Positions 3,166 to 62,713 of a stretch of 64,000 bases of DNA are shown one piece after another. Each line of letters opens with the position of its first letter. Position 1 is the stretch's first letter. The translations under genes were made by a program, and so were the position numbers. The notes below the pieces were generated by a model, which had not been told where the DNA came from, made no database searches, and saw only the letters and a program-made list of their open reading frames with translations. Source of the DNA: an uncultured Candidatus Saccharibacteria bacterium (GTDB lineage Bacteria > Patescibacteriota > JAQUNI01); assembly GCA_964555185.1 (NCBI GenBank), contig CAZKRD010000003.1, forward strand, positions 83,943 to 147,942, in the 5' to 3' direction.

Positions 3166-4809
3166 TCATCCCAAGGAGCGTGTCTGCCGCGAATTGGCTT
3201 GTTTGATAAATTCTAAAAACAAAGGGTGAGGCCGCAGGGGGCGGGATTTAAACTCGGGATGAAACTGGGTTCCGACAAAGAAGGGATGGTCAGAAAGTTC
3301 AATGATTTCAACGAGGTTGCACTTGGGGTTGACCCCACTCACAACCAATCCTTTTTTAATAAGCCGGTCGCGGTATTTGTTGTTTAGTTCATAGCGGTGG
3401 CGGTGACGTTCGCGCACTTGCCTCTGCCTATATGCCTTTGCTGCGATGGTGTTCTTTTTCAGAAGACGGCAGGTGTAAGCGCCCAAGCGCTGGGTTTTGC
3501 CGTAACCTTTAATTTTCAAAAGGTCCTTTTGTTCTTCCATCAGGCAGATGACCGGATAGGGGGTTTTAGGGTTAATTTCCGTGGTGTGGGCATTGTTCAT
3601 TCCGGCTAGATTGCGGGCAAATTCAATCGTGGCCAGCTGCATACCATAACAAAGTCCCAAATAAGGGATTTTTTGTTCGCGAACATACTGGATCGCGAGG
3701 ATTTTTCCTCTTACTCCTCGTGATCCATACCCGCCCGGCACAATAATCCCGCCGTAGTTTTTCAATTCTTTTAGTTTTTTCTTATCTTTTTCATATTTTT
3801 CCGAGTTGATCCATTGGATATTTGGTTTGCAATCACAGGCCCAGGCAGCGTGTTTTACAGCCTCAATTACGGAAATATAGGAGTCCTTTAAGGTGAAGTC
3901 GCCGGTTTTAAAGTATTTGCCGACAATTCCGATTTTGACCTTCCCTTTGACTGTTTTGATTGTCTGAACCAATTTTTTCCAGTTGTTAAGATCCCCCTGC
4001 CTTGGTTTGAGTTTGAAGAGTTTGAGAATTTTCTTAGCGAATTTCTGTTGATTGAAGATAAGCGGCACCTCGTAGATTGAATCCAGGTCAGGGTTGGCAA
4101 TGACATGGGCTTCGGGCACGCCGCAGAAGAGTGAAATTTTACTGATCCTCTTTTTGTCTAGTGGGAGGCTGGCCCGGCCGACAATAAAATCAGGCTGAAT
4201 GCCGGCAGCGTTTAAGGTCCGGACAGAGTATTGCACCGGTTTGGTCTTCATCTCACCCACAGTCTTGGGCAGGGGAAGGTAAGAGACATGGATATGGGCG
4301 ACGTTTTCCGGATCCGCTCTTTTCATCATTCGGTTTGCCTCCAAGAAGAGTACGCCCTGGTATTCACCGACCGTGCCGCCTAATTCAATAATTACAAACT
4401 CGGCGCGCGCCCGTCTTCCCGCTTTTTTAAATCTCCTGATGATTTCTTCTGGTATATGGGGCACTACTTCCACGTCTTCGCCCTCATATTCGAGGTTCCT
4501 TTCTTTTTTAATCACGGCTTGGTAGATTTGACCTGTGGTCAAGAAATTGGAGGTATTGAGGTTAGTATCCAAGAATCTCTCATAAGAGCCGATGTCCTGA
4601 TCGGTTTCAATCCCATCTTCGGTCACAAAGACTTCGCCGTGTTCTGTGGGGCGGATTGTGCCGGCGTCAATGTTGACATACATTTCGCATTTAACATTAG
4701 TGACCCGGTAATCTTGGACCTGGAGGAGTTTGGCCACGGAAGCGGCGGTTATCCCTTTACCTAAACTTGAGATCACACCGCCAGAGATAAAGATGTATTT
4801 TGTTTTCAT
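3166..4809 (-). CDS. pyrG: CTP synthase
   Basis: The N-terminus MKTKYIFISGGVISSLGKGITAASVAKLL is the canonical PyrG start. The GLCYGMQ motif is the glutamine amidotransferase active-site Cys. Length is 547 aa. Confidence 0.95.
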   Translation of the reverse strand: MKTKYIFISGGVISSLGKGITAASVAKLLQVQDYRVTNVKCEMYVNIDAGTIRPTEHGEVFVTEDGIETDQDIGSYERFLDTNLNTSNFLTTGQIYQAVIKKERNLEYEGEDVEVVPHIPEEIIRRFKKAGRRARAEFVIIELGGTVGEYQGVLFLEANRMMKRADPENVAHIHVSYLPLPKTVGEMKTKPVQYSVRTLNAAGIQPDFIVGRASLPLDKKRISKISLFCGVPEAHVIANPDLDSIYEVPLIFNQQKFAKKILKLFKLKPRQGDLNNWKKLVQTIKTVKGKVKIGIVGKYFKTGDFTLKDSYISVIEAVKHAAWACDCKPNIQWINSEKYEKDKKKLKELKNYGGIIVPGGYGSRGVRGKILAIQYVREQKIPYLGLCYGMQLATIEFARNLAGMNNAHTTEINPKTPYPVICLMEEQKDLLKIKGYGKTQRLGAYTCRLLKKNTIAAKAYRQRQVRERHRHRYELNNKYRDRLIKKGLVVSGVNPKCNLVEIIELSDHPFFVGTQFHPEFKSRPLRPHPLFLEFIKQANSRQTRSLG

Positions 4810-8228: not shown

Positions 8229-8277
8229 TGTCATTGCGAGGAGCCCGTCCGAAGGACGAGGCGACGAAGCAATCTCA
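8229..8277 (+). repeat. MITE-like palindromic dispersed element, copy A (tgtcattgcgagg-N-cgaagcaatctcat)
   Basis: It lies in the rpsR-ssb spacer. The same arms recur at 41892-41943, 41968-42014 and 43632-43674. The inner hairpin is CGTCC-gaa-GGACG. Confidence 0.75.
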
Positions 8278-8318
8278 TACAGAGCAGTATAGATGACAGC
8301 TCGCGCTGTCACTTTTAA

Positions 8319-9061: not shown

Positions 9062-9110
9062 ACCTTCGTCCCGAGGGCGTTCGACTGAGCTCAGCCGAAC
9101 GCCTCAGGTC
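9062..9110. promoter_or_regulatory. GC-rich near-perfect palindrome between rpsF and ssb (possible intra-operon attenuator or processing hairpin)
   Basis: gggcgttcgactgagctcagccgaacgcc is near-palindromic around a gagctc centre. It is located 3' of rpsF and 5' of ssb on the minus strand. Confidence 0.4.
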
Positions 9111-9130
9111 GAGGGAGATTGGAAATTATT

Positions 9131-9726: not shown

Positions 9727-10788
9727 TCAGGTTTTAAATTTAAATTCGATCACATCGCCATCGCGGACAATATAGTCTTTGCCCTTGGTTTTGATTAAGC
9801 CCAAATCATGGGCCTTAACCCAAGAGCCGGCCACAATGAGTTCTTGCCAGTTGGCAACTTCGGCTTTGATAAAGCCCTGTTCAAAATCCGTGTGTACCCT
9901 GCCCGCGGCTTTTGGCGCGAGAATCCCAGAGGGCACGGGCCAGGCGCGGAGCTGTTTTGTACCTTTTATTGTATAGAAGGTGATTAAATCCAATATCTTA
10001 AAGCTGGATCGGATCAGTTTGTTGATACCGGTTTCCTTTAAATTTAATTCATCGCGGTATTCTTTTTGTTCTTTTGCTGGCAATTCAGAGATTTCTAATT
10101 CCAACCGAAGCGGCAGAGCGAGATCTATCTTTGGATTTTCTTCTGGCCTTCTATTTTCGTCACAGTTTAAAAGCTGGATTGTTGGCTTAGAGGTTAAGAG
10201 AGAGAGGCTGTGGATGATCCTCTCCTCTTCTTTGTTGAATTTTTTGTCCTTGATCAAATCTCTTTTTTTTAAATATTTTTCCAGTTTTTTTAAAAACTCC
10301 AGTTCTTTTATTTTTTCTTTGTCTTCGCCTGCCCTCCTGGTTTTTTCTATTCTTTTTTGGACAGCAGCCAAGTCAGCGAGGGCAAGTTCGGAATTGATAA
10401 TTTTGATATCCCGTTCGGGGTTAATGTTTTTTTCCGTGTTTTGAATATTGGGATCAGAAAATCCGCGGACAACATGAATAATCGCGTCCACTTCCCGGAT
10501 CCGGGCTAAGAATTGATTGCCCAAGCCCTCGCCTTTATGCGCATTACGAACCAGGCCGGCGATATCTGAAAATTCAACTTGGGCGGGCAGGACCCGGATC
10601 CCTGGAACGAGTTTAGCGATTTTTTTAAGCCGTGAGTCTGGCACCTTGACGACGCCGACATTGGGATCAATCGTGCAAAAAGGATAATTCGAAATAGCCA
10701 CCTGTTTTTTGGTCAGGATCTGGAAAAGAGTAGATTTGCCCACATTGGGGAGGCCGATGATGCCGATCTGCATAATTTGTAAGATCAA
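9727..10788 (-). CDS. ychF: Ribosome-binding ATPase YchF (Obg-family)
   Basis: MQIGIIGLPNVGKSTLFQILTK...NYPFCTIDPNVGVVKVPD is near-identical to the YchF G1 region. A TGS C-terminal domain is present. The true start is probably the internal MQIGIIG at about 10773. Confidence 0.9.
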   Translation of the reverse strand: MILQIMQIGIIGLPNVGKSTLFQILTKKQVAISNYPFCTIDPNVGVVKVPDSRLKKIAKLVPGIRVLPAQVEFSDIAGLVRNAHKGEGLGNQFLARIREVDAIIHVVRGFSDPNIQNTEKNINPERDIKIINSELALADLAAVQKRIEKTRRAGEDKEKIKELEFLKKLEKYLKKRDLIKDKKFNKEEERIIHSLSLLTSKPTIQLLNCDENRRPEENPKIDLALPLRLELEISELPAKEQKEYRDELNLKETGINKLIRSSFKILDLITFYTIKGTKQLRAWPVPSGILAPKAAGRVHTDFEQGFIKAEVANWQELIVAGSWVKAHDLGLIKTKGKDYIVRDGDVIEFKFKT

Positions 10789-10797
10789 AAATCAAAT

Positions 10798-10818
10798 CCC
10801 TGCCTACCGGCAGGCAGG
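10798..10818. repeat. REP-like GC-rich palindrome ccctgcctaccggcaggcagg followed by caaaatg(c/t)aaa tandem repeats
   Basis: It is a near-perfect palindrome in an AT-rich spacer. The same motif appears at 13864-13884 and 25836-25856. Confidence 0.6.
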
Positions 10819-10948
10819 TCAAAATGCAAAATGTAAATGCAAAATGTAAAATTGTCAAATTCAAAAAGTTCCATTGCTTTCATTATAGAATATTGTCAAA
10901 AAATATAAAGGGAGTATAATGTTGAAGTATCATTAACCTTCAAAATGT

Positions 10949-13819: not shown

Positions 13820-13863
13820 TTTGATTTAAAAAAACCAAAACCAGAGAAAAATTTTAGTTTTTG

Positions 13864-13884
13864 CCCGTCTGCCGGCAGGCAGGG
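13864..13884. repeat. REP-like palindrome cccgtctgccggcaggcaggg just 3' of trpS
   Basis: It belongs to the same cctgcc..ggcagg family. Confidence 0.55.
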
Positions 13885-19771: not shown

Positions 19772-21217
19772 CTAATACGCTGTCGGTTTTTTTAACCTAT
19801 TTTTTACTCTTTGCGCTATTTTTTTGTCTAACACTTTTTCAAGGTCGGTTATTCTTGCTTTTTTGATGTTTTCGATTGAGCCGAATTCTTGAAGAAGCAC
19901 TTGTTTTCTTTTTGGGCCAATGCCTGGGATCTGATCGAGCTTGGAAGCAATTGTTGCTTTTTTGCGCAGTTTGCGGTGATAGCTGATTGCAAAACGGTGG
20001 GCTTCATCGCGGATTTGTTTTAGAAGCATTAAGGACCTGGAATCATCTGGCAGAGTAATCGCTTTCTTCTTTTTTGGAAAGTAGATCTCTTCCAGTTTTT
20101 TAGCGAGAGCGCGTACAGGTATTTTAAGATTATATTTCTTGATTGCTTTGAGAGCAGTATTAAGCTGGGCTTTGCCTCCGTCAATCACAATAAGATCGGG
20201 CTTTGGCCATCCCTCTCTTTGTTTTCTAAATCGCCTTTCTAAAATTTCTTGGATCATCGCGACATCATTCGCGCCTTTGACGGTTTTAATTTTAAAGCGG
20301 CGGTAGTCAGATTTTGATGGTTTCCCATTATAGAACACAATCATCGAGCCGGTTGCTTGCTTTCCTTGGATATTGGAAACATCATAGGCCTCAATCCGGT
20401 AGGGGATCCCGAGAAGTTTTAAGTCGCCTTTTAGTTTAGCTCCGAGAGTTTCTTGATAGAGGTTAAGCTTGCCTCCTTGGATATTTTGTAAGAATTCTTT
20501 AATACTTTTTTTGCTCATCGCCTGAATCTTTTCTAAAGCAAACAATCGGTTGCGGTAAAATGTTGCTTTTTCATAATTTTGCTCTTGACTTGATTCAAGC
20601 ATTCTCTTCTTGCTTTCTCTTGTTATTTTTTTATGCTTCCCGCGTAGGAATTCTTGGATGCTTTTGATAATTTCCTGATAATCTTCTTTTTTGATTTTAT
20701 GAACACAAGGCGCAGGACAGAGTTCAATGTGATAGAAAAGACAGGTCTTCTTTGGTAGATTTTTACAGGAACGATAGGGAAAGATTTTGCGCAGAATTTT
20801 TAAGGTCTGTTTGGCAGCAAAGGAGGAAAGATAAGGACCAAAGAGTTTCCCTGAGAATTTGTCCTTTTCTTTCTCGCGCAGAATAAAAATCAGGGGGAAC
20901 TCTTCGCGGGTTAGGGCGATATAGGCGTGGGATTTGTCGTCTCTACCAATGATATTGTAATCTGGCCTGTATTTTTTAATCAGACTGTATTCTAAAAACA
21001 AGGCCTCGGTTTCGTCTATGACCACGATGTGCTCGATTTTTTTAATCTTGGCGAGCATCTGCTTTTTATCCGGGGCAAGGTTATTTCTTTCGCGAAAATA
21101 GGAAGAGACCCGTTTTTTTAGGTCCTTGGCTTTGCCAACATAAATAACGTGATTTTTAAAATCACGGAAGATATAGACACCGGGTTTTTTTGGCAACTCT
21201 GCTATTTGTTTTTTCAT
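19772..21217 (-). CDS. uvrC: Excinuclease ABC subunit C (short form, 481 aa)
   Basis: The N-terminal GIY-YIG domain reads PGVYIFRDFKNHVIYVGKAKDLKKRVSSYF. The C-terminal HhH reads IPGIGPKRKQVLLQEFGSIENI. It is shorter than the typical 600-aa UvrC. Confidence 0.8.
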   Translation of the reverse strand: MKKQIAELPKKPGVYIFRDFKNHVIYVGKAKDLKKRVSSYFRERNNLAPDKKQMLAKIKKIEHIVVIDETEALFLEYSLIKKYRPDYNIIGRDDKSHAYIALTREEFPLIFILREKEKDKFSGKLFGPYLSSFAAKQTLKILRKIFPYRSCKNLPKKTCLFYHIELCPAPCVHKIKKEDYQEIIKSIQEFLRGKHKKITRESKKRMLESSQEQNYEKATFYRNRLFALEKIQAMSKKSIKEFLQNIQGGKLNLYQETLGAKLKGDLKLLGIPYRIEAYDVSNIQGKQATGSMIVFYNGKPSKSDYRRFKIKTVKGANDVAMIQEILERRFRKQREGWPKPDLIVIDGGKAQLNTALKAIKKYNLKIPVRALAKKLEEIYFPKKKKAITLPDDSRSLMLLKQIRDEAHRFAISYHRKLRKKATIASKLDQIPGIGPKRKQVLLQEFGSIENIKKARITDLEKVLDKKIAQRVKNRLKKPTAY

Positions 21218-21321
21218 AATTTAAAGAGTATACTTAAGATTAGACGCCTGATTGTCCTGCGGTCTGTAGCTAGCTTTTTCGTTCTTTCATAATAACAGGT
21301 TGCGGTCTATCTCGAAAGGGG

Positions 21322-22939: not shown

Positions 22940-25777
22940 ATGCCAAAAGAAATTCTGATCCGCGGGGCGCGGGTCCATAATTTAAAGAACATTGATCTTA
23001 AGATCCCGCGAGACAAACTGGTTGTGATCACTGGTCTTTCTGGTTCTGGGAAGTCTTCTTTGGCTTTTGACACGATTTATGCTGAAGGGCAAAGGCGGTA
23101 TGTCGAGAGTCTCTCTGCTTATGCCCGGCAGTTTTTGGGATTGATGGACAAGCCGGATGTGGATCAGATTGAAGGGTTGTCGCCCGCGATCTCGATTGAC
23201 CAAAGGTCAGCTTCTTCTAATCCCCGTTCGACCGTGGGCACGATCACGGAAATTTATGACTATCTAAGACTGCTATTCGCGCGAGTGGGCAGACCGCATT
23301 GCTCGAAGTGCGGTAAGCCGGTTTCAGCTCAGACCGTAAGCCAAATCACGGATAAAATCCTTTCGGTTCGCAAAGGGACCAAGGTGGTCATTCTAGCGCC
23401 AATGGTTCGCGATCAGAAAGGCGAACACAAAAGAGAGATTGCCGAGATTCAGAAAGCGGGTTTTGTTCGGGTGCGTCTGGATGGGACAATTATGGATGTA
23501 GAGGAAGCCTTAGAGACTGCGATTAATCGACGGAGGAGACACAACTTGGATGTGGTTGTTGATCGGTTGATCTTAGAGAAAAACAAAGAAGAGCGGGAGC
23601 GGCTTGTTGATTCTCTGGAGACTGCTTTGGATTTGGGCAATGGCTTGGTGATTATCAATCAGCCTGATGCCAAAAAGGACGTTCTTTTTTCGGAACACTT
23701 TGCTTGTCCGGATTGCGATATTAGCCTGCCGGCTTTGGAGCCGCGCAATTTTTCTTTTAATTCTCCGCACGGCGCCTGTCCTGAATGCACGGGTTTGGGC
23801 ACCAAGCTTGAGATTGATCAGAAGCTGATTATTCCGAATAAAAAGCTCTCGGTGCGCGAAGGAGCGATCCGGCCTTGGGCGCGGGCCGTTTCGGCTGGCG
23901 GCTGGTATATCCAGATGCTGGAATCAGTAGCCAGTCACTATGGCTTCTCTTTAGATCTTGCTGTAAATAAATTAAAACAGGACGATCTCAATATCATTCT
24001 TTACGGTACCAAAGGCGAGCGAGTGCCCACTACTTATCGTAAAGAGTATAGGCATTTTGAGGCAAAGATTCCTTTTGAGGGCGTGATCCCGAATCTGGAG
24101 CGCAGGTACAAAGAGACCCAGTCTGACTATATCCGGCGCGAGATTGAAAAGTATATGCGGATCTATCCCTGCCCGACCTGCCAGGGCGCCCGCCTCAAAC
24201 TCGAGATTTTAGCTGTCACTGTAGGAGAGAGATCAATTATTGATATTGTCAGGATGAACATTGCCGAAACCTCTGATTTCTTTAAGGATTTGAGTAAGTC
24301 TTTAACCCCTAAAGAAAGGATAATTGCGAAGCAGATCCTAAAAGAGATCAGAGAACGGCTTTCTTTTTTGCAGAATGTGGGTCTGCCTTATTTAACCCTA
24401 GACCGCTCCGCTTCTTCTCTGGCCGGGGGCGAGGCCCAGAGGATCAGACTGGCGACTCAGATTGGTTCTTCACTTTCTGGCGTTCTCTATATTTTAGATG
24501 AACCTTCAATCGGTTTACATCAGAGGGATAACCTGCGGCTCCTTGCTACCTTGAAGCAGTTAAGGGATCGGGGTAATACCGTGATTGTGGTTGAACATGA
24601 TGAAGAAACGATCTTGAATGCCGACCACATTATTGATATCGGACCAGGGGCAGGCAAACACGGCGGCGAGATCGTGACCCAAGGTTCGCCTGCACAGGTT
24701 AAGAATTGCAAAAAGTCCTTAACCGGCCAGTATCTAGCCCACAGATTGGAAATTCCTCTACCTCAACACTATCGTCGCGGCAATAGCCGCAAGGTTTCGA
24801 TTAAAGGAGCAAGAGAGCACAACTTGAAGAATATTGATGTTGAGATTCCTTTGGCCAAATTCGTTTGCATCACCGGTGTTTCTGGTTCAGGCAAGTCCAC
24901 TTTGATGGATGATATCTTGGCGCGGGCCTTGGCCCAAAAGTTTTATCGCGCAAAAAGACTGCCGGGAAAACACAGACGGATCACGGGTTTTTCTTATTTA
25001 GATAAAGTGATTACGATTGACCAGTCGCCGATCGGCCGGACGCCCCGTTCCAACCCAGCTACTTATACCGGCGTTTTTACTCCGATCCGCGAACTTTACG
25101 CCAAAGCCCCGGAAGCCAAGATCCGCGGCTATCGGGCGGGCCGGTTCAGTTTTAATGTTAAAGGCGGGCGCTGCGAGGCCTGCCGCGGCGAGGGCTTGGT
25201 CAGGATTGAAATGCAGTTTCTGCCTGATGTTTATGTGGAGTGTGAGGAGTGCCAAGGCAGCCGTTACAACAAGGCGGCTTTGGAGATTTATTGTAAAGGG
25301 AAGAACATCGCGCAGGTTTTGGAAATGACCGTGGAAGAGGCCTTGCAGTTTTTTTACAATATTCCGATTGTTCGTCAAAAATTTCAAATATTAAGTGAGG
25401 TCGGATTGGGTTATCTCCGCTTGGGGCAGCCCGCGCCTACCCTGTCTGGCGGCGAGGCGCAGAGAGTCAAATTAGCCACTGAACTTTCGCGCCGGGCCAC
25501 AGGCAAGACCCTCTACATTTTAGACGAGCCCACAACCGGTCTCCATTTTGATGATGTGAAGAGACTCTTAGGGGTCCTGAATCAATTAGTGGATAAAAAG
25601 AATACGGTTTTGGTGATTGAACACAATCTGGATGTGATTAAATCCGCGGATTGGATTATTGATTTGGGGCCGGAAGGAGGAGAGGCCGGAGGGGAGATTG
25701 TGGCACAGGGCACGCCGCGGCAGATGGCGAGAGTGAAGAAGAGTTATACGGGGCAGTTTTTGAAAAAATATTTTTAA
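22940..25777 (+). CDS. uvrA: Excinuclease ABC subunit A
   Basis: The protein is 945 aa. It has two ABC ATPase modules ([19 protein letters not shown] and [15 protein letters not shown]) and zinc-finger Cys pairs (CPDC, CPEC, CEAC, CEEC). Confidence 0.95.
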
Positions 25778-25804: not shown

Positions 25805-25856
25805 CCTCGCCTACCGGGAGGCAGGCAAATTAAATCCCTGCCTGCCTGCCGGCAGG
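25805..25856. repeat. Two adjacent REP-like GC-rich palindromes (cctcgcctaccgggaggcagg; ccctgcctgcctgccggcagg) flanked by imperfect inverted (a/g)tctcaaa/gtcaaaa tandem repeats
   Basis: Read directly from the uvrA 3' spacer. The second palindrome is perfect over 20 nt. Confidence 0.65.
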
Positions 25857-25939
25857 TTAAAAATATTTTTGACTTTCCCTCGACCTGAGGCTCGAGACTC
25901 GAAGGTTGATCTACATTTTTGAGATTTGACTTTTGACTT

Positions 25940-40887: not shown

Positions 40888-41229
40888 ATGACTACTTTCT
40901 TGGGCGTGCAAATTATTGGCGCGATCTTTGGTCTGTTTATGGCCTATTTCAGCTTTATCTATTTTAAGCGGGAGCAATTTTCCCTGCCGACTTTGATTTT
41001 TTGGGAGATTCTTTGGGTGGCACTGATTTTCGTCACGATCTTTCCCGCATCCACCAATTTCTTTTTGGAGAAATTAGGCTTAACCCGAGCAATGGACCTT
41101 TTTATGATTTTGGGGTTTATGGTTATTCTTGGTCTTTCTTTTTATAACTACATCATAATCGCAAATTTAAGGAAGAAGATCGAGAAGGTAGTGAGAAAGG
41201 AAGCATTGAAGGATTTTAGGAAGAAGTAG
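40888..41229 (+). CDS. Small 3-4 TM membrane protein (DUF2304/GtrA-like partner of the GtrB-like GT2)
   Basis: The protein is 113 aa and hydrophobic. The 4-nt gap to the upstream GT2 suggests translational coupling. Confidence 0.5.
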   Translation: MTTFLGVQIIGAIFGLFMAYFSFIYFKREQFSLPTLIFWEILWVALIFVTIFPASTNFFLEKLGLTRAMDLFMILGFMVILGLSFYNYIIIANLRKKIEKVVRKEALKDFRKK

Positions 41230-42508
41230 AATTTAATGTTTTTCGATAGATCTGTTCGTGATCTTGGGCGATTTTACCCCAGGTTAAATAGTTGGCAAGG
41301 TATTGATAAGCATTTTCTATTAATTTTTGATCAGGATTTTTGAGGGTTTTAAGAATTTTTTCCTTCCAGAGATTTACATCATTATAGGCTAAAACGAGGC
41401 CTAATTTTTTTTGAGAAAAAAGGTCAGCAATCCCTTCGCATTGGTCTGAAATAATTACAGGGGTTTTGGAGGCGGTTGCTTCCAAGGGGGACAGGGGGAA
41501 GGCCTCATATTGAGAAGGATAAACAAAAAGATTCGCTTCGTGGAGAGCAGCAAGCTTTATTTTTCCAAAAAGCGGACCAGTGAAAATGATTTTTTGTTCT
41601 AATTTTTTTTGTTGAATTTTTTTTTCTAGTTTTTTTTGATAATTTTCATCTGGTCCAGCAAGGACTAGTTTTGCTTGAGGCAATTCTTTGTCAACTTTAC
41701 TGAATACATCAATCAGGAAATCAAGTCCTTTGATTGGATTAATTCTGCCCAAAAAAAGAATAAAAGGAGAGCTTCCTAATCTGAATTTTTGGCGGAAGAG
41801 GTTTTTGGGAATAGGTTTTCTGAATTTTTCAAGATTAACTCCATTTTTTATTTGAATGATTTTCTTTTTCTTGTCATTGCGAGGAGTCCCGAGTTTGTCG
41901 AGGGACGACGAAGCAATTTCATATGGATAGTATTTTGTGGGGTCTCTTGAGATTGCTTCGGTCGTTCGCTCCCGCTCACTGCCTCGCAATGACATTTTAA
42001 TAAACTCTTGTTTTTCTTTTTTACTTAAGACAAGAATCCGGCTTGCCTTTTGCAGAATCCTTTTACCAAAAAGGAAATCAAATTTTTTTTTGACTGTTAT
42101 GAACTTTTTATGATAAGAAAGTGAGCCGTGTAAAGTGAGGACGCAGGGGATATTGTATTTGCGCGCGTAATGCGAGATCACAATATTTTGAAAAGTGCGG
42201 TATTCGTGTAAGTGAATAAGATCAAATGTTTTTACAAAATGCTTGGTCCCTAAAATAGAAGGGGTGATCGGTAGTTTGATCTGCGGGGATAGAGCATGAG
42301 ATATATTTTTGAAACAAAAGATTTCAAGATTGTTTATTTTTTTCTGTGTATAAGGGATTCTTTTCTGGGAATTCAAAGTATCTGTTGTATAGACTGTAAT
42401 TTCGTGGCCGCGCGTTGCCAAGGCTTTGCTTAACTCGAAAACAGCCCGGGCCGTGCCGCCGGAGCTTGGCCTCGGATAAAAATAAGGAGTAACTTGCAGG
42501 ATTTTCAT
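41216..42508 (-). CDS. Glycosyltransferase family 1 (GT4) carrying an in-frame 123-bp (41-aa) insertion of a palindromic repeat element between its two Rossmann domains
   Basis: The N-terminus is MKILQVTPYFYPRPSSGGTARAVFELSKALATRGHEITVY. Residues 165-206 (..MSLRGSERERTTEAISRDPTKYYPYEIASSSLDKLG..) are encoded by the element at 41892-42014. Confidence 0.75.
   Translation of the reverse strand: MKILQVTPYFYPRPSSGGTARAVFELSKALATRGHEITVYTTDTLNSQKRIPYTQKKINNLEIFCFKNISHALSPQIKLPITPSILGTKHFVKTFDLIHLHEYRTFQNIVISHYARKYNIPCVLTLHGSLSYHKKFITVKKKFDFLFGKRILQKASRILVLSKKEKQEFIKMSLRGSERERTTEAISRDPTKYYPYEIASSSLDKLGTPRNDKKKKIIQIKNGVNLEKFRKPIPKNLFRQKFRLGSSPFILFLGRINPIKGLDFLIDVFSKVDKELPQAKLVLAGPDENYQKKLEKKIQQKKLEQKIIFTGPLFGKIKLAALHEANLFVYPSQYEAFPLSPLEATASKTPVIISDQCEGIADLFSQKKLGLVLAYNDVNLWKEKILKTLKNPDQKLIENAYQYLANYLTWGKIAQDHEQIYRKTLNSTSS
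41892..42014. mobile_element. Head-to-head dimer of the MITE-like palindromic element (copy B 41892-41943 forward, copy B' 41968-42014 inverted), 123 bp, inside a GT1 coding sequence
   Basis: It reads tgtcattgcgaggagtcccgag...cgaagcaatttcata, then 24 bp, then tgagattgcttcggtcg...cctcgcaatgaca. Both arms match copy A (8229-8277) and copy C (43632-43674). Confidence 0.75.
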
Positions 42509-42511
42509 ATT

Positions 42512-43618
42512 TTAAGGAGTTAGTTCTTGAAATTGGTTTGGGATTTTTAGGATTCTGGCAATCAAAGAAATTGCCCAGAGAAACATTAAGGTGCCGTGGA
42601 TGTCAGGTTCTCTTTTACCTTTTGTAATTTTGGCATTGTAATAATAAACATTGGCTTTATGAGGCAAGAGAGAAAAAGCACCGACTTTTGGGAAATAGTA
42701 ATCGTGATAAATGTGTTTTAATTGATTCTGGGCAAATCTTTTGATTTCAGCAGGTTGGTAATTACCACCTGCTTTTTTATAGGCATGATAGAGGACATAG
42801 AGGGTGTTTAGGATATCACAAGCTTGTTTTGATTCGGCAGGCGACCCACGGGTCGCCCCTACATATTTTATTTGTAAACAGAGATCAATTAGTTTTTCAG
42901 GATAGGAAATTGGGAGATAGTTAATTAGCCTAAAACCCGTGATTATTTTCATCGCGCCATTGATTTTTTCTTGCAGAGGAGGTTTGCCACAGTACCAGGC
43001 GCCGTCTTTTGAGTGTTCTAATCTAGCGATCAGTTTAAGAGCAAAGGTAGTAAGCTCTTTTTTGTTTTTTAGGTTGCTGTTTTGTAAGAAGAAAACAAGG
43101 TGAGAGAAATGACTGCCGGCGTCCCAAGGTTTCTGCCAGTTGAGTTTGTTAAGATACAGATTTATCCTCCTTTTTGTTTTTGGGAAATTTTGATAAGGAT
43201 GATCAGGCTTTGCGCTTAAGAGCTTGAGGCTAGAAATTGCTTGCCTGGTCTCCGCACGCTTAGTTTTTTGACCAAAAGCATTTTGGAAGTTAAGAGAGGT
43301 GAGAGCGGACGCAATATTGCGCGGTCGTGCCTTTCTTGAAACTAAAGGATCAGAGATGCTTCCGTCTTCTCTTTCAAAGCTTTTGATAAATTGAATTATC
43401 TCTTTTTTTTCTTTTGAGGGTAATTTTTCTAGTTGATTTAAAATATAATAAATCTTTACGGCGAACACAGTGTTGCCTAATCCCCATTTTATGTTTTCAT
43501 TATAGAGATCACCAGACAGACTATAATGGAAAAAACCGGGCGCTTTTTCGCCCTTTAATTTTTTTAAGAATTTAGGAATTGTATTTTTTAATTCAAAGAC
43601 CCAGTCTATGTTTTGCAT
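42512..43618 (-). CDS. Hypothetical protein (possible alpha/alpha-toroid fold); the annotated ORF start at 43675 runs into repeat copy C
   Basis: The 368-aa core has motifs DGSISD, DGAWYCG and IHGTLMFLWAISLI. The N-terminal MSLRERATARPKQSHSPLN of the long ORF is translated repeat, so the start is probably the Met at 43618 (MQNIDWV). Confidence 0.4.
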   Translation of the reverse strand: MQNIDWVFELKNTIPKFLKKLKGEKAPGFFHYSLSGDLYNENIKWGLGNTVFAVKIYYILNQLEKLPSKEKKEIIQFIKSFEREDGSISDPLVSRKARPRNIASALTSLNFQNAFGQKTKRAETRQAISSLKLLSAKPDHPYQNFPKTKRRINLYLNKLNWQKPWDAGSHFSHLVFFLQNSNLKNKKELTTFALKLIARLEHSKDGAWYCGKPPLQEKINGAMKIITGFRLINYLPISYPEKLIDLCLQIKYVGATRGSPAESKQACDILNTLYVLYHAYKKAGGNYQPAEIKRFAQNQLKHIYHDYYFPKVGAFSLLPHKANVYYYNAKITKGKREPDIHGTLMFLWAISLIARILKIPNQFQELTP

Positions 43619-44675
43619 ATTTAGTGGGGAATGAGATTGCTTCGGTCGGGCAGTAGCCCTTTCTCGCAATGACATTTAAGATTTTCCATTTCAAGATCGC
43701 GAGTTTGATTTGATAAAAATGAATTCGTTTGATTCTTTTGGCTTTGTATTCTTTGTCCTTTAGGATTCTTTTGGCAAAAGTATAGTATTCTTGAGCGGTT
43801 TTTTGCAAGGAAAATTGGGGGAGCCTAGATTGATAATTGTGATAATCATTTTTAACTTTTTCAATTTTGGCAATCACATTTTTTTTGCCTTGGAATAATT
43901 CCCCGCCGTTTTTTAAAAGTTCGGGATGGCCGCCGCTTCTTCTTGCGACAACCGGAAGACCGGAAGACAGGGCTTCGATTAGGGAATTAGAACAAGGGTC
44001 ATTGAGGCTGCCAGTGATAAAGATATCACTCCTCTTTAGGATTTGGCCTAGATTCTCGGGGACAAGCGGGGTTAACCATTTTATGTTTTTAAATTTGATT
44101 GGCGAGTTGCCGATAAAGTACATTGCATAGCGACCAAAATCTAAGTTCCGGTCTAAGTATTGATAGATAGCAAAGCCTTTGCGGATATTTTTTGACCAAC
44201 TGACAGCCACCACTACGGTTTTTCTATTGGGGCGGAATTTTATTTTTTCAATCTGGTTAAAGATTTCAGGGTCAGGAGCATTGTGGATTATGGTTTGGTA
44301 AGGAGAAACTAGACCAAAAGATTTTCTGTTTTGTCTTTGTGACCAGCTAGACTGGAAGACAATGCCGTCAGCAAAATTGCGGGCAAAGCAGGCAATGATT
44401 TTATCTATTGTTCTGTTTTTGCCGCGATAAAAAGAGATCGGTCCGTCAACACGATGGATAATGATTTTGTTTGGGTCTTTTTGTTTTAGCTCCCAGATTT
44501 TTTTAAAAAGATATTCTGCGCCAAAAGGATAACTGTTGAAAATAATAACCTCTGCTTCTTGAGGGGTTTTACTATAGACACCTTGCTTTTCCAATTCTTT
44601 CCTTAAAGCTTGCAAGAATTGATTGCCTCCTCCCCAAGGGCTTTTGCGGAAATTGTAGAGGACGTGGATTTTCAT
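43593..44675 (-). CDS. Glycosyltransferase family 1
   Basis: The C-terminal region is GLPVVARRSGGHPELLKNGGELF. Confidence 0.65.
   Translation of the reverse strand: MKIHVLYNFRKSPWGGGNQFLQALRKELEKQGVYSKTPQEAEVIIFNSYPFGAEYLFKKIWELKQKDPNKIIIHRVDGPISFYRGKNRTIDKIIACFARNFADGIVFQSSWSQRQNRKSFGLVSPYQTIIHNAPDPEIFNQIEKIKFRPNRKTVVVAVSWSKNIRKGFAIYQYLDRNLDFGRYAMYFIGNSPIKFKNIKWLTPLVPENLGQILKRSDIFITGSLNDPCSNSLIEALSSGLPVVARRSGGHPELLKNGGELFQGKKNVIAKIEKVKNDYHNYQSRLPQFSLQKTAQEYYTFAKRILKDKEYKAKRIKRIHFYQIKLAILKWKILNVIARKGYCPTEAISFPTKYAKHRLGL
43632..43674. repeat. MITE-like palindromic element, copy C (inverted orientation)
   Basis: The reverse complement of tgagattgcttcggtcgggcagtagccctttctcgcaatgaca matches the arms of copy A. 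Confidence 0.7.
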
Positions 44676-61282: not shown

Positions 61283-62713
61283 GTGACACGCAAAAAGAAC
61301 AAAACAAAAAGAGGCAAGCCCGCCTTGCCCGCAAAGCGAGGCAGGCCGCGTAAAAAACCCCGGCGCAAGACTGTCCCAAGGAAAACGGTTAAAGCCCGCC
61401 GCAGAAAAGAAACTGTCAAAAGGAAACCAAAGACCACTCGGAAAACCACACGCCGTAGAAAGTCTGCTATTCGCAAGACTGTTCGCAAGAAAGGCAAAAC
61501 CCGCGCTTATGCCAGTAAGAGCAAGAAAAGAACTCCTCGTCGCAAAAAAGCAGCAAGGAGATATAGGTCCGCCTTGCCCGCAAAGCGAGGCAGGCGTCCG
61601 CGAATAAGCAAAAAATCCAAACCCAAGCCAAAAGTATACAAGCTTAAGTATCTTTTCAAGAAAGGAAAGCAGCAGGGTTTTATTACCGAGAATGAACTCC
61701 TTGCCGCCATCCCTGAAATAGAGGAACAGGGTGAGGTTTTAGATCAGTTTTTAAGTGAATTAGACAGAGAAGGGATTGGGCTCCAAGAGACGAGCAGAGA
61801 CCTGATTAAGATCGAGACTAAAGCCGAGGGAATGAAAAAGCGTTCAAAAGAGGAGGAAATTTTTGCAAGAACTTTGGATCTTGGGGATATTTCTTCGGAT
61901 TCAGTCCAGATGTATTTGCGGGAGATTGGCAAGGTCCCTCTTTTGACCGGAGAGCAAGAGGTTGATTTAGCAAAGCGGCAGGAGAAGGGCGAACGGGAAG
62001 CAAAGAAACAACTGATTGAGGCCAACCTTCGTTTAGTGGTTTCCGTGGCCAAGAAATACGCCGGCCGTTCTCTTTCTCTTCTGGATTTGATTCAAGAAGG
62101 AAACATCGGTCTTTTTCGTGCTGTAGAGAAGTTTGATTACCGCCGGGGTTATAAATTTTCTACTTACGCGACTTGGTGGATCCGCCAGGCAATCACGAGA
62201 GCGTTAGCAGATCAGTCACGCACAATCCGAATCCCGGTTCATATGGTGGAGACGATCAACAAATTCACCCAGACTGAGCGGCGGCTGGTTCAGGACTTGG
62301 GCCGCGAGCCGATGCCGGAAGAGATCGCCGCCGAGATGGGGATCCCCTTGGAAAAGGTCCGCCAGATTTTGAAAGTTTCCCAAGAGACTGTTTCTTTAGA
62401 GACCACAGTAGGAGAAGATGATGAGGATTCCACCTTGGGTGATTTTATTGAAGACCAAAAGACACCCACGCCAGACCGCTTAGCCAGCCGTGAGCTTTTA
62501 AGGAATCATATCCAGGATGTAATTGGCGATCTGAACCCTCGGGAACAAAAGATTTTGAGTATGCGCTTTGGTTTGGCTGATGGTATTTCTCGTACCCTTG
62601 AAGAAGTAGGGAGGGAATTCGGCGTTACCCGTGAGCGGATCCGCCAGATTGAAGCCAAGGCCCTAGAAAAAATCCGAGACCATCATTTGGTGAAGAGATT
62701 GAAGGATTATTAA
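61283..62713 (+). CDS. rpoD: RNA polymerase sigma factor RpoD with a 115-aa extremely basic N-terminal extension carrying two AT-hook motifs
   Basis: Regions 2-4 are present ([61 protein letters not shown], ...[20 protein letters not shown]). The N-terminus has [11 protein letters not shown] and [13 protein letters not shown]. Confidence 0.9.

What the first reader, a model, noticed from the sequence alone, without database searches (positions are those of the whole stretch)
41892..42014. MITE-like palindromic element family; a head-to-head dimer sits in-frame inside a GT1 glycosyltransferase gene
A unit of about 50 bp (tgtcattgcgagg - 5-bp GC hairpin - cgaagcaatctcat) occurs in four copies. 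One is in the rpsR-ssb spacer (8229-8277). Two form an inverted dimer at 41892-42014. One is at 43632-43674, at the start of the next gene. The dimer is exactly 123 bp (41 codons) and contains no stop. It therefore adds a 41-aa loop (..MSLRGSERERTTEAISRDPTKYYPYEIASSSLDKLG..) between the N- and C-terminal Rossmann domains of an otherwise intact GT4 enzyme. The neighbouring gene's apparent N-terminal extension (MSLRERATARPKQ...) is translated from copy C in the same phase. This suggests selection for reading-frame-neutral insertions, like coding-region MITEs such as RPEs and NEMIS. The element may carry its own promoter or RNA structure.
Basis: seen in the sequence. Interest (0 to 1): 0.7.

Follow-up and report, generated by a model that had tools for sequence, protein, structure and literature searches.

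The report
Nuclease-linked hairpin repeat inside a gene
The repeat is real and is a new sequence family of an already described class of bacterial hairpin repeats (TGTC/CGTC-tagged REPs, the binding sites of small GIY-YIG single-strand DNA nucleases called Ssn), here inserted as an inverted pair, in frame, into a floppy loop of a sugar-transferase gene, as is already known for the same class in Rickettsia.

Summary
There are four copies: 8229-8278(+), 41872-41922(+), 41948-41994(-) and 43631-43674(-). The 123-bp inverted pair lies at 41872-41994, 20 bases left of the coordinates given. It adds 41 residues to an otherwise intact GT4 enzyme. About 100 homologs lack them, and AlphaFold models them as a disordered loop. 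Copy C is not an N-terminal extension of the next gene; it is a 22-aa in-frame insertion in the C-terminal tail of the upstream glycosyltransferase.

The unit is TGTC + ATTGC + GAG + variable hairpin + CGAAG + GCAAT + C. Exact matches to its arms occur in at least 119 genome contigs from nearly all bacterial phyla and in at least 120 viral contigs. It has the tag, the A-T-first stem and the following C of CGTC-tagged REPs (Di Nocera 2013: dRS3, RPE-4, RPE-6) and of Ssn-related motifs (Chenal 2025).

I tested the Ssn link directly. Of 80 metagenomic loci encoding a 95-aa GIY-YIG protein that is 44% identical to Neisseria SsnA, 65 carry this element within 200 nt upstream and 63 downstream, usually in the same inverted geometry as the window's pair. 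A syntenic relative lacks copy C.

Verdict: a new member of a known kind. No ssn gene lies in the window, and the way the element spreads is unknown.

The parts
8229..8278 (+). Copy A, a single unit in the ssb-rpsR spacer. It is antisense to the rpsF-ssb-rpsR operon, which is on the minus strand.
   Evidence: Model R1 hit at E = 4.7e-7.
41872..41922 (+). Copy B1, the left unit of the inverted pair, antisense to the GT4 mRNA. The C that follows the stem is a T here (GCAATT).
   Evidence: R1 hit at E = 2e-4.
41923..41947 (.). Spacer between the two units of the pair.
   Evidence: Measured between the search arms it is 32 nt, within the usual 10-35 nt of 107 such pairs elsewhere.
41948..41994 (-). 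Copy B2, the right unit of the inverted pair, in sense orientation in the GT4 mRNA.
   Evidence: R1 hit at E = 1.2e-7.
41872..41994 (.). The whole inverted pair: 123 bp, tags outward, 13-bp perfect terminal inverted repeats TGTCATTGCGAGG / CCTCGCAATGACA. It makes up 41 codons of the GT4 gene.
   Evidence: As single-stranded DNA it folds into one long hairpin of -29.1 kcal/mol, z = -6.5.
41216..42508 (-). GT4 glycosyltransferase gene, 430 aa, carrying the pair. Homologs are about 390 aa.
   Evidence: Pfam PF13439 and PF00534. Alignments A1 and A5. AF2 mean pLDDT 90.1, with only residues 184-210 below 50. The identical protein is found on 5 contigs of independent assemblies.
43631..43674 (-). 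Copy C, a single unit. It lies in frame in the C-terminal tail of the upstream GT and 13 nt upstream of the real ATG of the next gene.
   Evidence: R1 hit at E = 5.5e-7. The site is empty in the relative L240.
43593..44675 (-). Upstream glycosyltransferase gene, 360 aa. Its tail carries a 22-aa insertion that includes copy C.
   Evidence: Alignment A2 against the 338-aa ortholog. Pfam.
42512..43618 (-). Middle gene with its true extent (start at MQNIDW). The ORF from 43675 is an artefact of copy C being open in that frame.
   Evidence: Alignment A3. Gene call of 368 aa.

Best explanation
The unit is a DNA-level hairpin repeat of the TGTC/CGTC-tagged REP class, that is, an Ssn-related motif.

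Anatomy (shown):
- an unpaired tag TGTC;
- a 5-bp outer stem ATTGC/GCAAT;
- a conserved purine-rich internal loop (GAG / CGAAG);
- an apical hairpin whose sequence is free but whose pairing is kept;
- a C directly after the stem.

Mechanism (inferred from the Neisseria work):
- When the tagged strand is single-stranded, it folds and is bound sequence-specifically by a cognate GIY-YIG nuclease of about 95 aa (Ssn).
- Ssn nicks a few nucleotides 5' of the tag.
- It acts on neither duplex DNA nor RNA.

Genomic behaviour:
- Shown: genes for such nucleases are typically bracketed by two copies with the tags outward.
- Shown: gene-less pairs in the same geometry recur, with conserved spacers, within genomes.
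- Inferred: the window's 123-bp pair is such a non-autonomous unit, MITE- or REPIN-like.
- Shown: copy C is absent from a related genome.
- Shown: elements are depleted in coding sequence, with a surviving minority there.
- Inferred: copies are gained and lost on a short time scale. Those that land in genes persist only if the length is 3n, the frame lacks the two TGA-bearing reverse frames, and the site is a tolerant loop.
- Shown: the tagged strand has no stop in any frame of its arms.

The GT4 enzyme most likely stays functional with a disordered 41-aa loop. How copies are made is not known.
For: Arms and counts:
- The arms are conserved and the centres differ in all four copies.
- Exact arm matches occur in at least 119 genome contigs across phyla and at least 120 viral contigs.
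- Among 490 elements there are 329 distinct centres.
- After the stem the consensus is C, then Y, then C.

Hairpin:
- Covariation of the inner helix on 89 distinct 33-nt units: 4 of 5 pairs change on both sides, 61 cells against 17.4 in shuffles, 0 of 500 shuffles as high.
- On the tagged strand G.T pairs outnumber A.C 23 to 10.

Link to Ssn:
- In L164 a 95-aa GIY-YIG gene (PF01541, 2.7e-15) is bracketed by the element 10 nt before its ATG and 8 nt after its stop.
- Of 80 loci encoding its relatives, 65 have the element within 200 nt upstream, 63 downstream and 54 both.
- Element density is 6.1 per kb near the gene against 0.31 per kb elsewhere in the same loci. The nearest upstream copy is '+' in 50 of 65 loci and the nearest downstream copy is '-' in 45 of 62.
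- That protein is 44% identical (E = 7e-17) to the N. gonorrhoeae SsnA ortholog. The ortholog has Y6, Y17 and E64 as in PMC11893778 and is flanked by NTS repeats.
- Ssn biochemistry comes from PMC11893778.

Pairs and turnover:
- Pairs with tags outward make up 115 of 246 close pairs, and they recur as units within genomes.
- Copy C's site is empty in the relative. L240 holds no copy of this family in 21 kb.

Coding context:
- In low-GC loci 8 of 47 elements lie inside long ORFs, against 67% of random positions.
- Two further in-frame cases sit in real genes: a DNA ligase and a PfkB kinase.
- The GT4 model is confident except for the insert.
- Class features and intragenic dimers of CGTC REPs (dRS3, RPE-4, RPE-6) are described in PMC3733652.
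Against: - No ssn gene lies in the 64-kb window or in 21 kb of the relative. The only GIY-YIG domain in the window is UvrC. A cognate nuclease in this genome is therefore unproven.
- The element fails the published SRM search sequence, with 0 hits.
- It does not have the 8-9 bp stem and 4-5 nt loop of the four 2013 CGTC families.
- Nearest-neighbour DNA folding of single units is weak. The consensus unit gives -1.6 kcal/mol, no better than shuffles. Window copies give z = -1.9, -0.8, +0.6 and -2.4.
- B1 has a T at the position corresponding to the C that is most important for SsnA binding of the NTS in Neisseria.
- Around Neisseria ssnA the repeat orientation is the reverse of that found here.
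- No target-site duplication is visible.
- A GIY-YIG hydrolase alone cannot join strands, so mobility by Ssn is a conjecture.
Confidence: 0.7

Rival explanations
1. It is an RNA-level element. The transcribed hairpin stabilises or processes mRNA or tunes translation, as has been proposed for many REPs, and the nuclease association is secondary.
For: - As RNA the units fold better than shuffles: z = -4.2, -1.6, -1.4 and -3.2.
- The pairing covaries.
- G.U-type pairs exceed A.C.
- Di Nocera et al. argue that many REPs are transcribed.
Against: - In the window the tagged strand is sense to transcription in two copies and antisense in two.
- Elements downstream of long ORFs show no strand bias: 22 on the same strand, 25 opposite.
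- There is no Rfam match.
- There is no U-tract or terminator-like site at the elements.
- Arms conserved across phyla argue for a sequence-specific reader. The only one known, Ssn, does not bind RNA.
Confidence: 0.12
2. It is a classical MITE: an internally deleted IS moved in trans by a DDE transposase that recognises the 13-bp terminal inverted repeats TGTCATTGCGAGG.
For: - The pair has perfect 13-bp TIRs with TG...CA ends.
- It shows presence/absence polymorphism.
- Pairs recur as units within genomes.
Against: - No target-site duplication is seen at any of the sites.
- Single units are as common as pairs and carry both conserved arms.
- The centres are hypervariable while the arms are fixed.
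- The gene found between the repeats is a 95-aa GIY-YIG nuclease, not a transposase.
Confidence: 0.05
3. It is a REP/REPIN moved by a RAYT, an IS200/IS605-type Y1 transposase.
For: The layout is similar: a tagged imperfect palindrome, inverted doublets and intragenic copies.
Against: - The defining tag GTAG is absent; the tag here is TGTC.
- CGTC REPs are reported to have no association with transposase genes (Table 1 of PMC3733652).
- The GIY-YIG association is strong.
- I did not scan the loci for Y1 transposases.
Confidence: 0.04
4. The 41-aa segment is an adaptive, selected addition to the enzyme, such as a new interaction loop, rather than a tolerated passenger.
For: - The allele is identical on 5 contigs from several assemblies.
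- The relative also carries foreign GC-rich sequence in the same loop.
Against: - The loop is predicted to be disordered.
- The same DNA element sits in unrelated genes and in spacers.
- The peptide is simply the translation of the repeat.
- No homolog has it.
Confidence: 0.05

Closest known systems
Ssn-related motifs (SRM), including the Neisseria Transformation Sequence CGTCATTCCCGCGMAVGCGGGAATCYRG, with their GIY-YIG single-strand nucleases Ssn (Chenal et al. 2025, PMC11893778)
   Same: - Same flanks: (C/T)GTCAT before the stem and ATC-Y after it.
- A hairpin core of 20-50 nt.
- Orientation is defined by the tag.
- Copies bracket genes for Ssn homologs of about 95 aa (65 and 63 of 80 loci here, against 71% reported for SRMs).
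- The distribution spans phyla.
- A near-canonical NTS (TGTCATTCCCGCGAAAGCGGGAATTC) sits in the syntenic relative L240.
   Different: - The stem sequence differs (ATTGC/GCAAT). It is interrupted by a conserved purine loop and carries a hypervariable apical hairpin.
- The element does not match the published degenerate SRM pattern (0 hits).
- About 17% of copies in low-GC loci lie inside ORFs, against 2% of NTS in N. meningitidis.
- The repeat orientation around the gene is the reverse of that at Neisseria ssnA.
- No ssn gene is seen in the window.
CGTC-tagged REP superfamily: families CGTC-1 to CGTC-4, including dRS3 and Rickettsia RPE-4 and RPE-6 (Di Nocera, De Gregorio and Rocco 2013, PMC3733652)
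   Same: - An unpaired tag that is often TGTC.
- A stem that begins with A-T pairs, and a short tail that begins with C.
- Mostly inverted dimers.
- In-frame intragenic copies, more than half of them dimers.
- Dimer peptides of the same type: SFLRKQES...LDSRFRGND there and SLRGSER...LGTPRND here.
   Different: - Those families have continuous 8-9 bp stems and 4-5 nt loops. This one has a split stem and a centre of 6 to over 40 nt.
- The string ATTGCGAG does not occur in that paper or in its held supplements.
- That study covered 5 phyla for CGTC repeats and names no CPR organism in the parts I read.
REPINs and REPs with RAYT transposases (GTAG-tagged)
   Same: Inverted doublets of a tagged hairpin, a single associated gene bracketed by the repeats, and many gene-less doublets per genome.
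   Different: The tag is TGTC, not GTAG. The associated gene encodes a GIY-YIG hydrolase, not a Y1 (HUH) transposase.
Coding-region MITEs such as Neisseria Correia/NEMIS elements
   Same: Small, palindromic, dispersed elements that can be co-transcribed with genes.
   Different: From my own knowledge: Correia elements are 100-155 bp with 26-bp TIRs and a TA duplication, and they are restricted to Neisseria. There is no sequence or architectural match here.

Membership tests
CGTC/TGTC-tagged REP superfamily (Di Nocera 2013) | An unpaired tetranucleotide tag CGTC (often TGTC) at one end | tested here: met
   All four window copies have TGTC. CGTC variants are present among the copies collected elsewhere.
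CGTC/TGTC-tagged REP superfamily (Di Nocera 2013) | The stem begins with complementary A-T residues in the first and second positions | tested here: met
   ATTGC...GCAAT. Pairs 5-32, 6-31 and 7-30 are A-T or T-A in 75 to 87 of 89 sequences.
CGTC/TGTC-tagged REP superfamily (Di Nocera 2013) | A continuous stem of 8-9 bp with a loop of 4-5 nt | tested here: not met
   The outer stem is 5 bp, followed by a purine internal loop and a variable apical hairpin. Centres run from 6 to 45 nt.
CGTC/TGTC-tagged REP superfamily (Di Nocera 2013) | A short unpaired 3' tail (consensus CCA) | tested here: inconclusive
   The tail here is C, then T (68%) or C (28%), then C (75%). It begins with C but is CYC rather than CCA.
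CGTC/TGTC-tagged REP superfamily (Di Nocera 2013) | Units mostly organised as inverted dimers, with intragenic in-frame copies occurring | tested here: met
   115 of 246 close pairs have tags outward. In-frame copies occur in the GT4 gene, a DNA ligase and a PfkB kinase.
Ssn-related motif (Chenal 2025) | Match to the degenerate search sequence HGTCWYN(0-2)YYVSBRHN(0-5)WNVSBRGN(0-2)RNCYNB | tested here: not met
   There are 0 matches in the window and in L240. The element fails at the YY positions, where it has TG or CG.
Ssn-related motif (Chenal 2025) | GTC directly upstream of the palindrome and a C directly after it (the bases that matter for cleavage and binding) | tested here: met
   Present in copies A, B2 and C. 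B1 has T instead of the C. The family consensus keeps both.
Ssn-related motif (Chenal 2025) | Copies flank genes for single-domain GIY-YIG proteins of about 94 aa that are homologous to SsnA | tested here: met
   - For the family: 65 of 80 loci upstream, 63 of 80 downstream, and a 20-fold local enrichment.
- The protein is 44% identical to Neisseria SsnA, with Y, Y and E conserved.
- This was not shown for the window's own genome.
Ssn-related motif (Chenal 2025) | The host genome encodes the cognate Ssn | not testable with these tools
   Only 64 kb of the 706,972-bp scaffold can be read. There is no Ssn in the window or in 21 kb of the relative; UvrC is the only GIY-YIG domain.
Ssn-related motif (Chenal 2025) | Bound and cut by Ssn as single-stranded DNA only, on the tagged strand only | not testable with these tools
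   This needs biochemistry. G.T exceeding A.C on the tagged strand (23 to 10) is only a weak hint.
Ssn nuclease family (cd10448), for the L164-type protein | Assignment to CDD cd10448 | not testable with these tools
   No CDD search is available. The supporting evidence is indirect: PF01541 only, 95 aa, 44% identity to SsnA, and a weak match to PDB 1zg2 (UPF0213).
Classical MITE | Terminal inverted repeats plus a target-site duplication | tested here: not met
   The pair has TIRs, but no duplication is seen at A, at the pair or at C, nor in the filled-versus-empty comparison.
GTAG REP / REPIN (RAYT) | A GTAG tag and an associated Y1 transposase | tested here: not met
   The tag is TGTC, and the associated gene encodes a GIY-YIG protein. 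I did not scan for Y1 transposases.
Rickettsia palindromic elements (RPE domain models) | The insert peptide matches the NCBIfam RPE domain models | tested here: not met
   The 60-aa and 34-aa insert peptides give no NCBIfam hit even at E = 10.

The most novel reading that the evidence does not exclude
The cassette 'hairpin - ssn - hairpin' would be an autonomous mobile element of a kind not yet recognised. It would be driven by a single-strand-specific GIY-YIG nuclease rather than by a transposase. The gene-less pairs with tags outward, such as the one in the GT4 gene, would be its non-autonomous derivatives. They would be actively inserting across bacterial phyla, including CPR bacteria and phage genomes, and writing new peptide loops into proteins.
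Probability: 0.3. Interest if true: 0.75.

Novelty: new member of a known kind. Interest (0 to 1): 0.4.

Why it matters
- It gives a name and a likely protein partner to one of the most widespread short repeats in bacterial and metagenomic sequence. This repeat is the source of many spurious 'hypothetical proteins' and false N-terminal extensions with peptides such as SLRG..RRSNL or ..LAMT / ..PRND.
- It shows that the published SRM search pattern misses at least one large family.
- It adds filled-versus-empty sites between two related small genomes. That is direct evidence that these repeats turn over quickly and can remodel protein loops and gene ends.
- For annotation, it argues for masking such repeats before start codons are called.

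Tried and rejected
- Rfam at gathering and at permissive thresholds gave nothing relevant.
- Full-text searches for the element's own sequence and peptide strings gave only primer noise. The lead came from the sister motif GTCATTCCCGC.
- The published SRM regex gave 0 hits.
- The fifth covariance-model hit, at 4075-4105, lies inside a conserved 547-aa ORF and has no hairpin, so I rejected it.
- I considered that the GC palindrome in the same GT4 loop of the relative is a decayed copy. It looks faintly similar by eye but is not detected by the model (best E = 2.2 anywhere in L240), so this is left open.
- NCBIfam RPE domain models gave no hit.
- The promoter and terminator scan found nothing at the elements.
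- An iterated HMM search for an Ssn gene in the window found only UvrC.
- Thermodynamic folding of single units as DNA was not significant, so the case for the hairpin rests on covariation.
- Neither supplement set gave the element's sequence. None is held for the 2025 paper, and the 2013 files lack it.
- I ran no further search on finding the scaffold's own ssn. The top-120 listing could not be expected to reach it.
Full report
**1. The observation**

The window holds four copies of one unit:
- A: 8229-8278 (+)
- B1: 41872-41922 (+)
- B2: 41948-41994 (-)
- C: 43631-43674 (-)

All four share the arms TGTCATTGCGAG(G/A) and CGAAGCAAT(C/T)TCA. Their centres of 17-24 nt are unrelated in sequence.

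B1 and B2 form an inverted pair with the TGTC ends outward. The pair spans 41872-41994, which is 123 bp.

A covariance model built only from copies found in other organisms (R1) picks out exactly these four in the 64 kb, at E = 1e-7 to 2e-4. Its next hit (4075-4105, E = 0.08) lies inside a conserved 547-aa ORF and has no hairpin. The same GT4 allele occurs on five contigs from independent assemblies, so the pair is not an assembly artefact.

**2. The coding context**

*The GT4 gene.* ORF 41216-42508 (-) is a GT4 glycosyltransferase of 430 aa.
- Its homologs are about 390 aa, and none of 103 aligned homologs has the 41 residues.
- An AlphaFold model built on that alignment is confident overall (mean pLDDT 90.1, pTM 0.87).
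- Only residues 184-210 fall below 50. They lie between helix 163-182 and strand 217-219, in the last loop of the N-terminal domain just before the crossover to the C-terminal domain.
- The insert is therefore best read as a tolerated disordered loop.

*Copy C.* A syntenic contig from a relative (L240, about 80-85% nucleotide identity) was aligned base by base.
- The relative lacks copy C.
- The upstream glycosyltransferase is 360 aa in the window and 338 aa in the relative. The difference is an in-frame 22-aa block that contains the translated element, and the frame resumes afterwards.
- The next gene starts at M20 (MQNIDW) in both genomes. A gene caller also gives 368 aa.
- The 'N-terminal extension' is therefore an artefact of the element being open in that frame.

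*Other differences in the same 3.5 kb.*
- The window has a further 30-nt in-frame GC hairpin in the middle gene, absent from the relative.
- The relative has a different GC palindrome in the same GT4 loop.
- The relative has a pair of near-canonical NTS-like units (TGTCATTCCCGCGAAAGCGGGAATTC ...) that rewrites the C-terminus of its GT4. That site is empty in the window.
- The relative has no copy of the window's family in 21 kb.
- These elements are therefore gained and lost on the time scale that separates the two genomes.

**3. What the unit is**

- At least 120 viral contigs match.
- At least 119 genome contigs match. They come from Alpha-, Beta-, Gamma- and Deltaproteobacteria, Chloroflexota, Patescibacteria, Planctomycetota, Cyanobacteria, Bacteroidota, Ignavibacteriota, Omnitrophota, Nitrospirota, Elusimicrobiota, Bacillota and others.

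*Forms.*
- The commonest form is 33 nt: TGTCATTGCGAGGAGCGNAGCGACGAAGCAATC. The shortest is 27 nt.
- Among 490 elements there are 329 different centres.
- The bases after the stem are C, then T or C, then C. The upstream flank is not conserved.

*Structure.* On 89 distinct 33-nt units:
- The outer stem ATTGC/GCAAT is nearly invariant.
- The loop bases G10, A11, G25, A26 and A27 are invariant or nearly so.
- The inner helix covaries. Four of five pairs change on both sides, in 61 cells against 17.4 in shuffles, and 0 of 500 shuffles reach that. Shifted registers collapse.

*Caveat on stability.* Nearest-neighbour folding of single units is weak, especially as DNA. The hairpin rests on covariation, not on energy. 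The whole pair can also fold into one long hairpin (-29 kcal/mol, z = -6.5).

**4. The link to a protein**

Rfam has no matching family. The literature search on the sister motif led to Chenal et al. 2025 (PMC11893778). That paper reports:
- Ssn is a 94-aa single-domain GIY-YIG nuclease.
- It binds the hairpin repeat NTS (CGTCATTCCCGCGMAVGCGGGAATCYRG) only as single-stranded DNA and only on the tagged strand.
- It cuts a few nucleotides upstream.
- The C just after the palindrome matters most for binding. The three bases before the palindrome matter most for cleavage.
- 71% of ssn homologs are flanked by such 'Ssn-related motifs'.

The window's unit has the same flanks (GTCAT ... ATC-Y) around a different stem. 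It fails the published degenerate pattern.

I tested the association directly.
- On contig L164 a 95-aa GIY-YIG gene (PF01541, E = 2.7e-15) is bracketed by the element. One copy ends 10 nt before the ATG. An inverted copy starts 8 nt after the stop.
- I fetched 80 metagenomic loci encoding relatives of that protein at 59-73% identity.
- The element lies within 200 nt upstream in 65 of them, downstream in 63 and on both sides in 54.
- Its density is 6.1 per kb next to the gene against 0.31 per kb in the rest of the same loci.
- The usual arrangement has the tags outward.

The protein is an Ssn homolog.
- It is 44% identical (E = 7e-17) to an ORF of N. gonorrhoeae.
- That ORF has Y6, Y17 and E64 exactly as described for SsnA, and it is flanked by NTS copies.
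- The corresponding residues Y8, Y19 and E66 are present in the L164-type protein.

More distant homologs carry their own tagged families:
- TGTCATTCTGAG...GAAGAATC on a Planktothrix plasmid;
- TGTCATCCCGG...CCGGGACCC on viral contigs.

This fits the picture of many co-evolving nuclease-hairpin pairs.

**5. The class was described earlier at the DNA level**

Di Nocera et al. 2013 (PMC3733652) defined CGTC-tagged REPs.
- The tag is often TGTC.
- Stems start with A-T pairs, and there is a 3-nt tail.
- The units occur mostly as inverted dimers.
- No dedicated transposase was found.
- dRS3 of Neisseria and RPE-4 and RPE-6 of Rickettsia belong to this class.
- Intragenic in-frame copies are documented, more than half of them dimers encoding 20-30 aa.
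- Their listed peptides (SFPRKRES, VIPAKAGI, SFLRKQES...LDSRFRGND) are of the same type as SLRGSER...LGTPRND here.

The present family differs from the four 2013 families in two ways: its stem is interrupted by a purine loop, and its centre is long and variable. Its sequence is absent from that paper's text and held supplements.

**6. Pairs, frames and selection**

- Among close neighbours, pairs with tags outward dominate (115 of 246). Their spacers are mostly 10-35 nt.
- The same pair, with the same spacer, recurs within genomes: L133, L323, L309, L259 and L106. Pairs therefore propagate as units.
- Pair lengths show no excess of multiples of three (40/30/37). The element is not intrinsically frame-neutral.
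- The arms have no stop codon in any frame of the tagged strand, and a TGA in only one frame of the other strand (read from the sequence).
- In low-GC loci 8 of 47 elements lie within long ORFs, against 67% of random positions.
- Two of those ORFs are real genes carrying in-frame copies: an ATP-dependent DNA ligase of a Curtissbacteria MAG, and a PfkB kinase of an Omnitrophota MAG with MSLRGAKRRSNL.

The simplest reading is insertion without regard to frame, followed by loss of the disruptive cases.

**7. RNA or DNA**

- In the window the tagged strand is sense to transcription in B2 and C, and antisense in A and B1.
- Elsewhere, elements downstream of long ORFs show no strand preference: 22 on the same strand, 25 opposite.
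- No promoter-like or terminator-like site coincides with the elements.
- Together with the nuclease link, and the reported lack of RNA binding by SsnA, this favours a DNA-level element.
- An added RNA effect in particular contexts is not excluded.

**8. What remains open**

- No ssn gene lies in the window or in the 21 kb of the relative. The only GIY-YIG domain in the window is UvrC. The rest of the 707-kb scaffold could not be read.
- No target-site duplication is visible.
- A hydrolytic GIY-YIG nuclease cannot by itself join DNA, so how copies are made is unknown.
- The orientation of the repeats around Neisseria ssnA is the reverse of the arrangement found here.
- B1 carries a T at the position corresponding to the C that is critical for SsnA binding in Neisseria. 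It may be a decaying copy.

**9. Verdict**

The finding is real and well explained. It is a new sequence family of a known class (TGTC/CGTC-tagged REPs, also called Ssn-related motifs). It is present as an in-frame inverted pair in a disordered loop of a GT4 gene, and as a second in-frame copy in the tail of the neighbouring gene.

In-frame dimers of this class were already known from Rickettsia, so the phenomenon is not new.

New here:
- the family itself;
- its very wide distribution, including CPR bacteria;
- the quantitative link to an Ssn subfamily;
- the filled-versus-empty comparison.

Interest is moderate.

Noticed in passing
window 42838-42867: A further 30-nt in-frame insertion sits inside the 368-aa gene, encoding ..YVGATRGSPA... 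Its core is the perfect GC hairpin GGCGACCC-AC-GGGTCGCC. It is absent from the syntenic relative and belongs to a different repeat family without a TGTC tag.
   Followed up: partly
L240 about 10492-10535: The relative carries a different GC palindrome (GGGGCGCGCC-ACG-GCGCGCCC) in exactly the GT4 loop where the window has the pair, and it replaces part of the native helix. The reason is unresolved: a tolerant site, an insertion hotspot, or a decayed older copy. The covariance model does not recognise it.
   Followed up: partly
L240 11182-11308: A pair of near-canonical Neisseria-type NTS units, tags outward (TGTCATTCCCGCGAAAGCGGGAATTC and TGTCATTCCCGA...TCGGGAATCC, the latter with a large nested centre), rewrites the C-terminus of the relative's GT4 to ..SFPRKREFRS. 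The site is empty in the window.
   Followed up: partly
window 10796-10819, 13861-13884, 25807-25826, 25833-25857; 61319-61346 and 61568-61595; 9101-9116 with 25876-25891: Three more families of short GC-rich palindromic repeats occur in this AT-rich window: AATCCCTGCCTRCCGGCAGGCAGG, CCGCCTTGCCCGCAAAGCGAGGCAGGC and GCCTCAGGTCGAGGGA. I did not check them for tags or for partner genes.
   Followed up: no
window 19775-21220 (-): This is UvrC (GIY-YIG, UVR, RNase H-like and HhH domains), the only GIY-YIG domain in the window. uvrA-like duplicated ABC segments lie at about 22976-24904.
   Followed up: partly
L325 (Planktothrix agardhii plasmid NZ_LR882964.1, 18847-19131): An Ssn homolog (66% identical to the L164-type protein) sits between an MmeI-type restriction-modification gene and DISARM drmA. 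It is flanked by a variant repeat TGTCATTCTGAG..GAAGAATC, in which the outer stem has covaried (ATTCT/AGAAT) while the GAG/GAAG loop is kept.
   Followed up: no
L326-L329 (IMG/VR contigs): Contigs classed as viral encode Ssn homologs (45-49% identity) bracketed by pairs, tags outward, of yet another tagged family: TGTCATCCCGG-[variable]-CCGGGACCC. At least 120 viral contigs also carry the window's family. Phages may move these systems between hosts.
   Followed up: partly
L324 (N. gonorrhoeae NZ_CP119142.1, 1881319-1882376; a chromosome filed as a plasmid): In this strain the ssnA ortholog appears to have a frameshift right after the ATG (ATGCACGGTTTATATTTTAGCAAGCCAACGTAA), with the conserved frame continuing in +1. 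The NTS copies around it are oriented with tags inward, the reverse of the arrangement found for the window's family.
   Followed up: no
L153 2014-2050 and L165 947-979: The same element is inserted in frame in an ATP-dependent DNA ligase of a Curtissbacteria MAG, where it splits the adenylation domain. It is also inserted in frame in a PfkB kinase of an Omnitrophota MAG.
   Followed up: partly
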